A DNA stretch of 63,746 bases, filler included, from Candidatus Nanoarchaeia archaeon (lineage in GTDB: Archaea; Nanobdellota; Nanobdellia; Woesearchaeales; DATDTY01): the NCBI GenBank assembly GCA_035290625.1. It is 5 parts of 5 records of this genome, joined end to end, with 100 filler letters (N's around TTAATTAATTAA, not from the genome) between each part and the next. Parts side by side here need not be neighbours in the genome. Positions count along the whole stretch, not along the records: positions 39,294 to 51,721 come from DATDTY010000042.1; positions 51,822 to 60,195 come from DATDTY010000050.1; 3 more parts are not named here. The stretch is one strand, 5' to 3'. Position 1 is the first letter of the stretch, and each line of letters begins with the position of its first letter. The position numbers were made by a program. Of this stretch, positions 40,901 to 52,900 are shown piece by piece.

Positions 40901-43900
40901 CAGGATTCAAACTGGCTCAGGGAGGGCTGGTTATAACCATGGACGCCGATCTTCAGGACGACCCAGCCGAAATCCCTCGGTTTTTGGATGAGATCCGACA
41001 TTGCGATGTTGTTGTCGGTTGGAAGTATAGGAGAAAAGATCCGCTTTCCAAGACGATTCCATCCAGGTTTTTTAATTATTCTATAGCTCTCCTAACTAAG
41101 ATCCGGATTCATGACTCAAATTGCGGGTTCAAGGCTTTTAGGAGGAGAGTGATCGAGAATATCCAGATTTATGGAGAACTCCATCGCTACATCCCGGTTT
41201 TGGCATTTTGGAAGGGATTTGAGGTAAGAGAGATGAAGATCAGGCATCATCCAAGGATTTATGGAAAATCTAAATATGGTATAGGGCGCTTATTTAAGGG
41301 GTTCCTCGATTTGATTACTGTGAAGTTTCTTATCAGCTACGGTCAGAGTCCTTTTTACTTGTTCGGTGGAATTGGAATAATCTTCAGTGTTATTGGTTTT
41401 ATATTAGGAGTTTATCTAACCACACTAAAGGTACTGGTAGGTGCCTCCATAGGCAGGAGGCCTTTATTGATATTTACAATGCTGCTTCTTGTCCTTGGTG
41501 TGCAATTCATAGGGATTGGGCTTCTTGGGGATATGGTATCTTATCAAAGGGAAAAAGAGCAATATATTGTAAAGAGGATCATTTAGACATCGGCTTCTTG
41601 TCTAGAGGTGTCTCTTGCAAATGTTCTTAGAACAACGTGCCTTAATGGCCTATAGTAGTACGCCATCCATCCGATATTTTTGAGGATGACAAGCATTATC
41701 GAATATAGCACCAATGCATAAAGATTGATAGACTTTATTGTGAAGAATGATGCGAGTATGGGGATAAGTACAAAAGCAATTAAACGGCAATCTTCAAAAT
41801 ACATCCATTCATTGTATCTGGCATGTTTCATTTTATTCAGAGCCTCTTTATCCAGGATTAAAATGACAACCAAATGCTGAAGAGGGTGGATTAAGGACAT
41901 AAGAATAATAAAGGGCGTTAATAAGAAGATGAGTGTCTCATTAAGGTTATAGAAAAGTGCGATGGTAATCAGCGCAGTTCCGATATAGCCGGTGACCCAA
42001 TCAAAGATGCCTCCCCAGCGTGAGGATACACCCCACAGCCTTGCTAGTTTTCCGTCGACATTATCGAGAAGGAATCGCAACAGGAAAAAGAGCGCTCCGC
42101 CGATAAGATGACCGGTGATAGACAGGTAGGCGCTAAAAATGACTGCGATGAAGGAAAGGAGGGTAATCATGTTTGGAGAGAGCCGAAGTATGTTGCCAAA
42201 GACCCACCCTAATATTAAATAGGGGTAATGAAGAAACATATTTGCGCGAGGCATCGGAACTGTAGCGACACGATCCAAATCATTGAAAGTAATCCTCTTT
42301 TTTTCCATGTTATTGCATCAAGAGCTTTAAATATATGAAAAATAGGATGATAGACATCCAGACCATAAGGACTGCATCAATAATGAATAGATTCAGGAGT
42401 GTGCTTAGTTCAACCATGAGTCTCACTTGTTATTTAATGCTTGGGAAGAGATTCGGCAATGCATTTTAAAATCTTTGCTTCCGTGACTAGCAGATAGGCT
42501 CTCTCACGATCAACCCGCAGATGCTTATTAATGTTAAGGTGTCTGAGCAGAAATCTTACGGCCCTATCCACTGTCTCATAGTTTACTGGTGGGCTTCCGA
42601 GCTCTCCAAGCCGTATAATCATGGCTTTCAGTAAGGCTGGGCTATTAAGGTCGTTGTCTTTCTGTTTTAACACTCGCTTGCGAATAAGGGGGGGGAATGC
42701 TTCAGAGTTTATCTGTATTTTATCAATATCGGCTTTCGCCACTTTTTCCCTGAACTCTTGTTGCAATTGCTTCTCTTGCCATCTCCTTTGAAGTAAGGAA
42801 TAGTCTATTTTGTTCCAGAATTCCCAATGGCCCGAGGGGATAGCTGAATATGGCAGGAACGCCTGTACTGGATAAACGCATGCATTTAGGTAGATGTGGG
42901 TTATGAGGCTCAGGCATGCATCTTGCCTGCTGAGGTTTAATGTCTTTTCTTGACCCAATTCGGAGATTGAGACTAGGAGGTTGTCTTTTTCCGCCTGAAT
43001 CTTGAGATATTCAAGCGAACCTTTTGAAATGTTAGTTTTCTTTCCTTTAAAAAGACAAAATGCTGCATCCAGCAATCTTGGCTGGTTTTCTAGTGTGTGG
43101 GTGTAGAGGGAATTGAAGGGTTGCAGATGGAACTGTATCCCCGGGATCAACGAGAAGAACGCATTTGACTCGTCCGCATTGCAGCTCTTGAGGATTTTTT
43201 GTGATATAAGCAGATGTGTCTTGCTATCCATACAGTTTAGGGATATACTTGTGGTTTTAAATTTTTGCGTTTGGCCTGATTTCGCAGAATCAAAAATTAT
43301 ATATACTAGTAAAAGTAACGATAGTGAATGGGAGAAGGAAGGAATGGTATGCCTGGCAGGAACTTCAGAGTCCTACTCATCCACGCAAATTCTTCAATGG
43401 ACACGCTGATTCCACCCAATTTGGCAACCCTTTCTGCGTGCTTAAAGAGGGCAGGGAACGAAGTCAGGCTCTTTGACACTACTTTCTACAATACGCGGGG
43501 GTTTACTGGAGATGATGCCCGGGTAAGGACGTTGCAGGTCAAGGAGACGCATTTTTCTGATTATGGAATTTATTTTAATGATACAGATATGCTCCAGGAT
43601 TTTCTGGAGATGGTTGAAGAGTTTAAGCCAGACCTCATTGGCTTTTCTGCAGTTGAGTTAACATTTAAGATGGGAATGGAAATTATTGATGCTGTGAAGA
43701 GGGTTAAGTCCGAGATTGTTGTTGCTTGCGGCGGAGCACATGCTATGACTTCTCCAGAGGACGTTATAGATGAAAGGAATATCGATATTGTCTGTGTCGG
43801 AGAGGCTGAAAATTCTTTTGTTGAATTGTGTGAAAAATTGAGAAATAAGGAGGATTATACGGGAATCCTTAATCTCTGGGTAAAAAAGGATGGCAAGATT

Positions 43901-49900: not shown

Positions 49901-52900
49901 AACTGTTGAATATATAAGCAGCAGAGGATGTTTTTTTGAGTGCGCCTTTTGTTTTGAGATTAAGATGAGCCAAAAGGTTTGGAAAGGTCTTTCTTCTGGT
50001 AGAGTGCTAGATGATTTTGAATGGTTATCTAAGATATATGGTATAAAGAAGATTCGAATGCTTGACAGCCTGTTTTTTACAAATAAAAGAAGAGCTAAGG
50101 AGATATTCCAAGGGATTGTAGATAGAAAGATTCCAATAAGATTAGAGTTTCTGAATGGGAGAACGAGACAGTTGAATATGTATGAGCCCGAAATGTGGGA
50201 ACTGATGAAGAAATGCGGAGTGATTGAGTTTCTTGTAGGAGCGGAATCGGGAACTGATGCTGTGTTAGAGTTGATCAATAAAGGATGCAGCGTAGAAGAC
50301 ACAAAGAAACTTGTCAGAACATGTAATAAGTACGGATTGAAGGTTATTCTTTCATGCATGACTGGACTTCCTCAGATCCCCGGCTTGAGGATGAAGGAGG
50401 AATTTAATTCAACGCTGGATCTTATTGCCTATGCGTGGAGCATTAATTCTAATAATGATGCGTACCTTATACCCTTTACACCGTATCCTAACGGAACTGC
50501 GCTTTGGAATCTCTGTGTAAAGAACGGATATAAGGAACCCCAGACTTTGGAGGGGTGGGGAGAGGTGGAATCGTATCGGCATAATACTCCGTGGGTGCCG
50601 AGGAAGTACAAAAGATGGGTTCAGATGATTCAGTATGATTATATCTTTCCGTTCATAAATGGGAGCATAGAAAGATATTGGCTTCCAAAAGTAAAGAGAT
50701 TCAAACCAGTTGCAAAGATTGGCTACAAAGTTGCCTTATCTGTTGCTAGGTTTAGGTTTAGGCATAAGTTTTTTTATTTGCCTGCTGAATGGTATCTTAT
50801 ACGACTCTATAAATACTTACGAACGAAGCAAGAAGACAAAGTCAGATTAGCTGAATTACAAGGACGTGGGCTGGATTCAAAGCTTGATACGCTTATTTTT
50901 TCAAAAGCCGAGGCAAAATAAAGAAAACCGAACGCATCCGCGGCCTAAAGGTCCTGGTTTTTGATAGTGCGATTCTCCAGACAAGAAAATTGCGGAGCGA
51001 TTTTCTGCCCGTGACCTCCTCCTGCGCAAACTGAACACTACGTTGTGATATGCATCTTGGTTCTTGATGGAGGCCAAGAACCACCATTGTCGTGTGTAAG
51101 GGAATAGAGGATTATGCATGGACATTCGCAACGAATATTCATTTCAAGACTCGAGTAGAATATATCTGGCGATACAAGAGAAGATAACAAATAGAAACAA
51201 ATTTCAGAGTAGAAGATGATGGGAGGATTAAGAGCAAGAGTTGCTCTTATCTAATCGGGTATTTCTACTTTCTCGTGAGTTTATGGCTCCATCTCCTTTG
51301 GATTGTCAATAAGAATATTAACCCTTATGTTCCGTATAAGAAATATCTGGATATTGTTGAGCAGAGGCTCACGTTAGAGTATCTGGAGCTTCATGGAATT
51401 TGAGGCGACGCTATAGCGTTAGCTTTCATGGAATAGCAAGAAGCAGGGGGTGGAAAGGAATATCTGGGACTAATCTCTGATCCTAATGCACCTACGTATC
51501 CTCTAAGTGTATGAGGGGGGTGCTTAGAGACTATATGGAATGAGAACGTTCGTCTGTAATCGGAGATGCTGGGTCAGAACCGGCTCGATTGCAAGTTAAC
51601 TCACAATTAGAAAGATTTAAGGGGGCTTCAGCCCCCATCTAATGGATAGATGGGGGTGGTGGAGACCCCACAATGCGAAAGAGAACATATGATGTAGACC
51701 TTAATAAAGTTGTTGCTAAGANNNNNNNNNNNNNNNNNNNNNNNNNNNNNNNNNNNNNNNNNNNNTTAATTAATTAANNNNNNNNNNNNNNNNNNNNNNN
51801 NNNNNNNNNNNNNNNNNNNNNACTGCGAATAGCATGCTCAAACGAGGCATGGGAGAAACCTTACGGGGGAAGTCCGTCGGCATGCAGGCAAGGCACTTCT
51901 ATATGAAGTGCTTTACGCATAATATGTTGGTGAGGGGTTAAGATGGAACTTGCAATCGAGCCCGTAAATCAAAAACTTTAAATACTCTGAAAGGGGCGGT
52001 ATCCAAAAGGCACATATATTTGTATTGGCCTTGTAAAAAAACATCATCAAGCGAGGAGGATTGCCCATGAGAGTCTCTTACCTATTATTCTTTGTTGTGA
52101 TAGCTCTAGGACTTGCAGCCTGTACGACACCGCAAGGAGGAGTCACTGTCCCTAATTCTCCCTATCAGGGCGGTTCTCAGGGATTAGTCCTGGAAATCGG
52201 GGACCTTGGAATCTTTAACGACCAAACCAACACAGAGGAGATTTTTGAAGGCGAGCCAATTCCTGTCGAGGTCACCCTGAAGAATAAGGGAGAATATGAA
52301 GTGCAGCCAGGAGAGGCAGCTGTAGATCTGCTCGGCATCTTCCAGAGTGATTTTTCAGGGCTTCCGGCAATCCGGCTTTCGAACACTGAGGCAATAGAAA
52401 AGGTTTCTGAATTCAACACTGAAGGAGGGGAGACAAGGCTAGCATTCACAGAAGGAAATGGAATGGTTGACCAGAGGCAGCTCGGGGATGCAAGCTTCAG
52501 GGATTTGAGCATTTTTACCAGGTATACCACACGCTATAAAACCTTTGCACTTGTGCCAAAGGTATGCTTCAAGGAAGACCTGCAGGATGAGAGTGTCTGT
52601 GATGTTGACGAGGTCAAGGATGTCTTCTCCTCTGGAGCTCCTATCCAGGTCAAGCGGGCGGAGGAGAGCAGGGCAGGAACTGGCCTGATTGCAGTTGAAT
52701 TTGAGGTTGAGAACGTCGGAGGAGGAGAATCAGCTGTCCATGGCCGTGCATTTGACAGCAGGTACAACGAGTTCGGGTTTGCAGTTGATCCTGCCGCAGA
52801 AGCTTCGATCTGGCAGTGCACATCGAGGGGCAGATCAGATTCTGCAAGATTTGACGCCAATGGAAAAGCGCAGATTCGCTGCAGGACAATCACTCCATTG

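What a model noticed while it worked through the whole genome (the two positions that open the first line are those of the whole stretch)
41583..50921. Fosfomycin-type early phosphonate pathway (Fom1-like PEP mutase/cytidylyltransferase) in a DPANN archaeon
C42 carries a phosphonate cluster: g00749 is a cytidylyltransferase-PEP mutase fusion 59.6% identical over its whole length to Fom1 of Streptomyces wedmorensis; then phosphonopyruvate decarboxylase (g00748), an iron alcohol dehydrogenase (g00747, FomC step), two cobalamin radical-SAM methyltransferases (g00746, Fom3 as second-best Swiss-Prot hit; g00751), a LicC-type nucleotidyltransferase (g00750) and a CDP-alcohol phosphatidyltransferase-family protein (g00744) beside glycosyltransferases. 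The set predicts cytidylyl-2-hydroxyethyl(or -propyl)phosphonate as an activated head group passed to a surface glycan or scavenged lipid, not an antibiotic.
Evidence so far: Call 26: g00749 CTP_transf_like 16-137 + PEP_mutase 153-410, TIGR02320 E 3e-119, Fom1 59.6% id 9-434 vs 6-431/435, E 3e-194; g00748 TIGR03297 E 6.6e-147; g00746 24% to Fom3 (E 1.9e-28); g00750 29% to FrbH N-part; g00744 CDP-OH_P_transf E 1e-12. PEP_mutase in at least 73 of 822 Woesearchaeales; next to the decarboxylase in at least 39 and to Fe-ADH in at least 25. C42 G+C 41.7%.
(Added by a program. Inside this text positions count along the whole contig: they may not be those of the stretch shown here. "Call 12" and the like, gene names such as g00115 and contig names such as C1 are that model's own, and its searches are not shown. 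The text may have been shortened before it was handed on; [...] marks where a part breaks off. The agent that wrote the report below was given it as the finding of a first reader that could run no searches.)

Follow-up and report, generated by a model that had tools for sequence, protein, structure and literature searches.

The report
Archaeal phosphonate cluster with tailoring enzyme
A small symbiotic-type archaeon carries a well-known gene set for making a carbon-phosphorus compound that probably decorates its cell surface, plus an unstudied vitamin-B12 radical enzyme that repeatedly travels with, and even fuses to, such genes and likely modifies the compound.

Summary
The cluster is real: nucleotidyltransferase, cytidylyltransferase-PEP mutase, phosphonopyruvate decarboxylase and Fe-ADH form one operon predicted to make CMP-2-hydroxyethylphosphonate. 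'Fosfomycin-type' is overstated. About 60% identity is the background of this fusion family (58-71% in 80 loci). No FomD was found. pepM+aepY+phpC in Woesearchaeota is already tabulated in a supplement of PMC9381506, and this scan noted a similar cassette in another genome (e1-4544435).

New here: g00746 (43328-44860), not g00751, belongs to an uncharacterised B12-radical-SAM clade tied to phosphonate genes. 5 of 6 sampled genomes with a member of at least 50% identity have pepM, against 19 of 400 background. Relatives are fused to Ppd, to AEP aminotransferase and to PEP mutase. Its reaction, most likely Fom3-like C-methylation of a CMP-phosphonate, is inferred only.

The acceptor is open. g00744 has Gly in place of the catalytic fourth Asp, and no lipid-synthesis, LicD or sulfatase-type gene was found. 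Glycan decoration is favoured. Verdict: new variant of a known kind, interest 0.5.

The parts
47188..48501 (-). g00749, cytidylyltransferase-PEP mutase fusion (437 aa): makes the C-P bond; N-terminal domain predicted to form CMP-HEP
46033..47166 (-). g00748, phosphonopyruvate decarboxylase (377 aa)
   Evidence: TIGR03297 above cut-off; TPP motif
44895..46028 (-). g00747, Fe-type alcohol dehydrogenase, predicted phosphonoacetaldehyde reductase (377 aa). Gln stands at a usual His-ligand position (position recalled), as in 45 of 69 Fe-ADHs from pepM loci
48498..49226 (-). g00750, LicC/PntC-type nucleotidyltransferase; probable ATG start at 49226 (longest ORF reaches 49301); its stop overlaps the pepM start
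   Evidence: orthologues of at least 40% identity in 4 of 19 and 7 of 80 pepM loci
43328..44860 (+). g00746, B12-radical-SAM enzyme (510 aa) of a phosphonate-linked clade; predicted tailoring enzyme
49329..50921 (+). g00751, second B12-radical-SAM enzyme (530 aa); no specific link to phosphonate genes found
   Evidence: best relatives 31-33%; groups with this genome's paralogues
41583..42308 (-). g00744, divergent CDP-alcohol phosphotransferase (241 aa, about 6 TM); fourth motif Asp replaced by Gly; the only family member found in the genome
42434..43231 (-). 265-aa ORF of unknown function
   Evidence: no Pfam or NCBIfam hit; no usable Atlas hit; no homologue in the pepM loci
40648..41586 (+). 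GT2 glycosyltransferase, ArnC/AglJ-like (polyprenol-phosphate glycosyltransferase type), 2 C-terminal TM
39465..40583 (-). GT4 glycosyltransferase
39294..39460 (.). about 165-bp dispersed repeat at the left contig end, matching many places in the genome; ties C42 to this genome
51578..51721 (.). right contig end, 99-100% identical over 140-144 bp to stretches of C25 and C49

Best explanation
C42 is an accessory surface-decoration island. Steps resting on strong family assignment: PEP to phosphonopyruvate (g00749 mutase domain) and decarboxylation to phosphonoacetaldehyde (g00748). Steps inferred from context and homology: reduction to 2-hydroxyethylphosphonate (g00747) and CMP activation (g00749 N-domain; g00750 possibly activates a second or modified substrate). 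g00746 then tailors the CMP-phosphonate by radical chemistry, most likely cobalamin-dependent C-methylation as Fom3 does, giving CMP-2-hydroxypropylphosphonate (inferred; about 0.4 on its own). The CMP-phosphonate is finally transferred to a surface glycan, such as an AglB-delivered N-glycan or its lipid carrier, by a transferase not identified here. It works like the first five steps of Streptomyces fosfomycin synthesis but ends on the cell surface.
For: Family scores and motifs. Operon spacing: 4-bp overlap, 21-bp and 4-bp gaps. Context: 16 of 19 same-order pepM loci hold glycosyltransferase, flippase or AglB genes (flippase 8, AglB 3, LicD 1, sulfatase family 5, CDP-alcohol transferase 6). 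G000 has two AglB, a flippase and SAM synthetase, enolase, two class II (B12) ribonucleotide reductases and 7 B12-radical-SAM genes. g00746 link: members of at least 50% identity lie in pepM-positive genomes in 4 of 5 cases in the order sample, against 1 of 18 genomes whose best match is 32-38% (Fisher p 0.003, kin not independent). The phylum sample added one new member, G480, with pepM 7.6 kb away. In metagenomes 5 of 11 non-self loci hold full pepM and 2 more hold other cassette genes. Fusions: Ppd-rSAM P0048 and P0056 (TIGR03297 436 and 467 bits, 53-54% to g00746); rSAM-AEP aminotransferase-methyltransferase in L042 (TIGR03301 418 against 361, 59%); rSAM-CTP-PepM P0122 (39%). More distant sister genes sit beside CMP-nonulosonate synthetase or NeuB genes (L165, L168, L169, L062), which fits recognition of a CMP handle as described for Fom3 (PMC9088020, passage).
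Against: No biochemistry. The fold search does not separate methylases from non-methylases: AprD4, TsrM, OxsB, MgmA, CysS and TokK all match at 14-19% identity, and the best profiles (HpnJ, BchE) are non-methylases and far below cut-off. G114 has a 50% member but no pepM or Ppd found (86% complete, gene at a contig end). 4 of 11 metagenome loci show no phosphonate gene, although their contigs end within 1.5 kb downstream of the gene. The clade is present in only 3 of 19 and 1 of 80 pepM loci, so it is optional. P0122 has a CX4CX2C variant and lies outside the core clade. No BtuF-type cobalamin transporter was found. No LicD or sulfatase-type transferase was found in G000, and g00744 lacks D4.
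Confidence: 0.65

Rival explanations
1. Same pathway, but g00746 is a non-methylating radical enzyme, for example an oxygen-free C1 hydroxylase or a rearrangement or elimination enzyme acting on the CMP-phosphonate. It would replace the O2-dependent dioxygenases of aerobic phosphonate pathways (recalled).
For: Best profile and structure hits are HpnJ, BchE, AprD4 and OxsB; HpnJ, BchE and OxsB are non-methylases (PMC9204698, passages). The clade accompanies HEP-type, AEP-type and Ppd-less clusters alike, which fits attack at a carbon shared by all.
Against: Most characterised members of the class are methylases, and Fom3 clusters with HpnJ in the network. H-abstraction next to either OH or NH2 would also fit methylation.
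Confidence: 0.2
2. The island makes plain CMP-HEP, and both radical-SAM genes are generic glycan-tailoring enzymes acting on sugars that merely share the locus.
For: B12-radical-SAM genes are common in these glycan loci (7 of 19; 7 in G000). Sister genes sit in nonulosonate loci without pepM. G114 is a counter-example. This reading probably holds for g00751.
Against: Three different fusions to phosphonate enzymes and clade-specific enrichment of 4 of 5 against 1 of 18.
Confidence: 0.2
3. The end product is a phosphonolipid: g00744 transfers the phosphonate from CMP to a scavenged lipid alcohol, as Kennedy-pathway enzymes do with CDP-choline (recalled).
For: g00744 is the only PF01066 gene found in G000 and sits in the island. 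No CarS or CdsA was found that could supply a CDP-lipid donor. CDP-alcohol transferases lie in 6 of 19 pepM loci.
Against: D4, the presumed catalytic base (PMC6506517, passages), is Gly, although several other cluster-linked copies also lack it. The family is in 232 of 401 same-order genomes. No close homologue was found. No GGGP synthase, UbiA-type or cis-prenyltransferase gene was found, so any lipid must be imported.
Confidence: 0.2
4. A fosfomycin-like diffusible antibiotic or small molecule.
For: Same first enzymes and the same kind of tailoring enzyme as the Streptomyces pathway.
Against: No DUF402/FomD in G000 (control rings in 7 of 14). No epoxidase-like or FomA/B-like gene among the ten C42 genes. 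Neighbourhoods are glycan loci.
Confidence: 0.04
5. C42 is a mis-binned bacterial contig.
For: Low G+C; second most atypical tetranucleotide profile of the 50 contigs of at least 8 kb.
Against: Both ends overlap other G000 contigs at 99-100%, and the left end is a repeat dispersed over the genome. PepM falls in a 17-row clade (SH-aLRT 91, quick tree) whose named rows are all archaeal. Contamination is 1.14%.
Confidence: 0.03

Closest known systems
Streptomyces fosfomycin pathway (Fom1, Fom2, FomC, Fom3, FomD, Fom4, FomA/B)
   Same: CyTase-PepM fusion, Ppd, Fe-ADH and a B12-radical-SAM enzyme, i.e. the logic of tailoring a CMP-bound HEP (PMC9088020, passages).
   Different: No FomD found, no epoxidase or resistance kinase in the cluster. 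An extra LicC/PntC-type enzyme, glycosyltransferases and a CDP-alcohol transferase are present. g00746 is not shown to be a Fom3 orthologue.
PntC/LicC-type cell-surface phosphonate clusters (PMC6697681)
   Same: Nucleotidyl activation of the phosphonate beside glycan genes; the PF01467-Ppm fusion seen in 23.6% of Ppm enzymes.
   Different: HEP branch rather than AEP; no LicD; carries a radical-SAM tailoring gene.
Nitrosopumilus maritimus and Stackebrandtia HEP/methylphosphonate exopolysaccharide clusters (PMC8942020, PMC9381506, passages)
   Same: ppm-ppd-Fe-ADH core in a surface-polysaccharide setting, with an archaeal precedent.
   Different: No MpnS-like gene among the C42 genes; a radical-SAM enzyme is present instead.
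Woesearchaeota and Pacearchaeota rows of PMC9381506 Dataset S1
   Same: pepM+aepY+phpC scored present in 2 Woesearchaeota and 2 Pacearchaeota genomes.
   Different: A presence table only; no hit for 'Nanoarchae' in the main text and no analysis of this radical-SAM clade in the passages seen.
Cobalt Borg glycoconjugate region (10.1101/2024.11.05.622173, passages)
   Same: PEP mutase-cytidylyltransferase fusion and a CDP-alcohol phosphotransferase in an archaeal surface-decoration region.
   Different: Extrachromosomal element, AEP branch, opposite domain order.

Membership tests
PEP mutase | TIGR02320 above cut-off and EDK-x5-NS motif | tested here: met
   393.6 against 319.55; [10 protein letters not shown]
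Phosphonopyruvate decarboxylase | TIGR03297 above cut-off, ahead of sulfopyruvate decarboxylase models | tested here: met
   485.5 against 312.5
Phosphonoacetaldehyde reductase (PhpC/FomC type) | Fe-ADH next to ppm and ppd; curated model | tested here: inconclusive
   PF00465 and adjacency met; TIGR03405 172.5 is below 423.7
Streptomyces fosfomycin cluster | CyTase-PepM fusion | tested here: met
   not diagnostic
Streptomyces fosfomycin cluster | FomD (DUF402) | tested here: not met
   none found in G000, 100% complete
Streptomyces fosfomycin cluster | HppE/Fom4 epoxidase and FomA/FomB kinases | tested here: inconclusive
   none among the C42 genes; not searched genome-wide
Fom3 | Orthology to Fom3 | not testable with these tools
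Fom3 | C2 methylation of CMP-HEP | not testable with these tools
   needs an assay
Cobalamin-dependent (class B) radical SAM | B12-binding domain, CX3CX2C motif and fold | tested here: met
   (pLDDT 95.5)
PhpK-type P-methyltransferase | TIGR04479 above cut-off | tested here: not met
   91.9 against 600
CDP-alcohol phosphotransferase (canonical active form) | four motif aspartates D1-D4 | tested here: not met
   D1-D3 present, D4 is Gly (role of D4)
PntC/LicC nucleotidyltransferase | PF12804/PF00483 with the N-terminal G-x-G-x-R-L...K signature | tested here: met
   substrate untested

The most novel reading that the evidence does not exclude
g00746 represents an undescribed family of cobalamin radical-SAM enzymes dedicated to tailoring CMP-phosphonates for cell surfaces in uncultured archaea and bacteria. 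It would yield a head group not found in my searches on any glycan or lipid (2-hydroxy- or 2-aminopropylphosphonate, or an anaerobically oxidised phosphonate). Fom3-type chemistry would then be a surface-decoration reaction that antibiotic pathways also use.
Probability: 0.5. Interest if true: 0.72.

Novelty: new variant of a known kind. Interest (0 to 1): 0.5.

Why it matters
Steps after CMP activation in surface-phosphonate pathways are described as enigmatic (PMC6697681, abstract). A defined enzyme clade with three kinds of gene fusion gives a soluble, directly assayable candidate for such a step, with substrates already used for Fom3. It also indicates that about 5% of these reduced archaea, which in this genome's case appear unable to make their own lipids, invest in C-P surface chemistry. 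That is plausibly relevant to virus or host recognition (by analogy with 10.1101/2020.11.04.368217; inference) and to phosphonate sources in anoxic habitats. The core cassette itself is ordinary.

Tried and rejected
Fom1 identity as a sign of fosfomycin type: rejected. g00751 as the phosphonate enzyme: no support. g00746 as a substitute for Ppd: rejected, because it is fused to Ppd in P0048 and P0056, and G480's Ppd lies on another contig. CDP-alcohol transferase presence as a sign of linkage: uninformative, 232 of 401. Structure prediction and fold search could not assign the reaction. The 265-aa ORF stayed unassigned. Expression: no RNA holder was listed, so no reads were laid. The careful PepM tree did not finish; only quick trees were used, so no donor or direction of transfer is claimed. 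The 'relatives' search found no same-family genome. Rows dropped before counts: L045 and the weak matches (not PepM), L151 (identical to C42), and duplicate sequences in the trees. L160 has the same gene set as G049:C92 and is not independent.
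Full report
Observation. The window joins several contigs; C42 occupies 39294-51721. It encodes ten proteins. On the minus strand, nucleotidyltransferase g00750, CTP-PepM g00749, Ppd g00748 and Fe-ADH g00747 form a tight operon. It is flanked by B12-radical-SAM genes g00746 (convergent) and g00751 (divergent), then a 265-aa orphan, CDP-alcohol transferase g00744, a GT2 and a GT4. 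PepM and Ppd pass their curated cut-offs and keep their motifs. The contig is compositionally atypical, but both ends overlap other contigs of the genome and the left end is a dispersed genome repeat. In a quick tree the PepM groups with archaeal and unnamed metagenomic copies. I take it as a genuine accessory island.

The core is ordinary. A scan of named genomes kept the best 80 of 167 loci; they come from many bacterial and archaeal phyla at 58-71% identity. 72 of the 80 have Ppd and 52 have Fe-ADH nearby. PMC6697681 reports this fusion in 23.6% of Ppm enzymes (passages). In a same-order sample, 20 of 401 genomes carry pepM, and 16 of the 19 non-own loci hold glycosyltransferase, flippase or AglB genes. 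PMC9381506 Dataset S1 (file 11, cut when stored; files 13-51 not searched) scores pepM, aepY and phpC present in two Woesearchaeota and two Pacearchaeota genomes; its summary counts match the 'O' marks. A search for 'phosphonate' plus 'Woesearchae' listed 8 papers, none about this by title or abstract start; I read passages of one, the Borg preprint. FomD was not found.

The informative gene is g00746. Its paralogues in G000 are 21-29% identical. Its close relatives form a clade (quick tree; 798 proteins at E<=1e-60). In the order sample, five other genomes have a member of at least 50% identity, and four of them have pepM: beside the gene in G214, G266 and G347, and on another contig in G049, where both genes lie at contig ends. 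Only 1 of 18 genomes whose best match is 32-38% has pepM (one of the 18, G209, is flagged unpublished and enters only this count). A phylum sample added G480, with pepM 7.6 kb away; its four weaker matches lack pepM. G114 is the exception. Of 11 non-self metagenome loci at 74-82%, five hold pepM, two hold other cassette genes, and four end within 1.5 kb downstream of the gene. Relatives are fused to Ppd (P0048, P0056), to an AEP aminotransferase plus methyltransferase (L042), and more distantly to CTP-PepM (P0122). g00751 shows none of this.

What g00746 does is inferred. The model is confident but equally distant from methylases and non-methylases. Core members share an N-terminal insert with invariant R65, plus R297 and D439-Y440-R441; these last are not kept in the sister genes and are candidate substrate contacts (inference). 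The clade accompanies HEP-type, AEP-type and Ppd-less clusters, and sister genes sit by CMP-nonulosonate genes. A CMP-bound substrate is therefore the simplest common factor, as for Fom3, which needs the CMP group (PMC9088020, passage). Cofactor supply is plausible: SAM synthetase, enolase and two B12-dependent ribonucleotide reductases are present, although no BtuF was found.

The acceptor is unresolved. In G000 no CarS, CdsA, GGGP synthase, cis-prenyltransferase, LicD or sulfatase-family gene was found, and UbiA gave only a stop-interrupted fragment. Two AglB genes, a flippase and many glycosyltransferases are present. g00744 is the only CDP-alcohol transferase, but it lacks the presumed catalytic Asp, and its family is common in the order (232 of 401; nine of the genomes in that tally are flagged unpublished). 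Glycan decoration is favoured over a phosphonolipid, without proof.

Literature seen: passages of PMC8942020 (plus its one supplement), PMC6697681, PMC9088020, PMC6506517, PMC11066067, PMC9381506 (plus supplement rows), PMC9204698, 10.1101/2024.11.05.622173 and 10.1101/2020.11.04.368217; other papers as search listings only. Searches for the radical-SAM link and for propylphosphonate glycans listed nothing describing this clade; one passage notes unspecified radical-SAM genes beside ppm-ppd in Campylobacter. The library lacks most subscription journals, where much phosphonate enzymology is published, so prior description cannot be excluded.

Verdict. A real cluster whose core is a known and already tabulated kind. 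One well-supported, testable addition is a phosphonate-linked B12-radical-SAM clade. New variant of a known kind; interest 0.5.

Noticed in passing
L043:9596-14191, L159:12201-16420, L154:2502-5671: Clusters without Ppd in the locus: pepM, a TIGR03301-type aminotransferase, a nucleotidyltransferase and (L043, L159) a CobD/HisC-like PLP enzyme. No Ppd was found genome-wide in G347 (89% complete). This suggests a Ppd-independent route, PnPy to phosphonoalanine to CMP-PnAla to CMP-AEP, like a split FrbH (FrbH's decarboxylase role is recalled). One search listed no paper on it.
   Followed up: partly
L053:9995-14352: Ca. Lokiarchaeum ossiferum (complete genome) has CTP-pepM, ppd, Fe-ADH and a nucleotidyltransferase in tandem, plus a second nucleotidyltransferase and an MFS gene upstream.
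   Followed up: partly
L155:5512-7047: Fusion of the PepM-type cytidylyltransferase domain directly to Fe-ADH, with no mutase domain.
   Followed up: partly
L043:17148-18521: PepM-type cytidylyltransferase domain (63% to g00749) fused to a citrate-synthase-like domain, followed by a second citrate-synthase-like gene.
   Followed up: no
L167:10718-11368, L153:5398-5997, L159:9118-9702: Ferredoxin-DUF4346 proteins lie near g00746 relatives, a possible electron donor; G000 has a weak match on C51 near a class II ribonucleotide reductase.
   Followed up: no
L028, L046, L068, L152, L153, L156-L159, L167: Sulfatase- and phosphodiesterase-family genes recur beside pepM and g00746 relatives, and are candidate phosphonate transferases (also suggested in e1-4544435). 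None was found in G000.
   Followed up: partly
L165, L168, L169, L062: Sister clade of g00746 (32-39%) in nonulosonate (NeuB or CMP-synthetase) loci; possibly radical tailoring of CMP-sugars.
   Followed up: partly
window 39294-39460 and many G000 contigs: A dispersed repeat of about 165 bp with over 30 blastn hits at 71-100% (some places counted twice), often at contig ends; MITE-like by behaviour.
   Followed up: no
L152:3082-4410: RuBisCO-like gene with a kinase and a GT9 next to a phosphonate cluster.
   Followed up: no
window 42434-43231: Orphan 265-aa ORF inside the island, with no family or look-alike found.
   Followed up: partly
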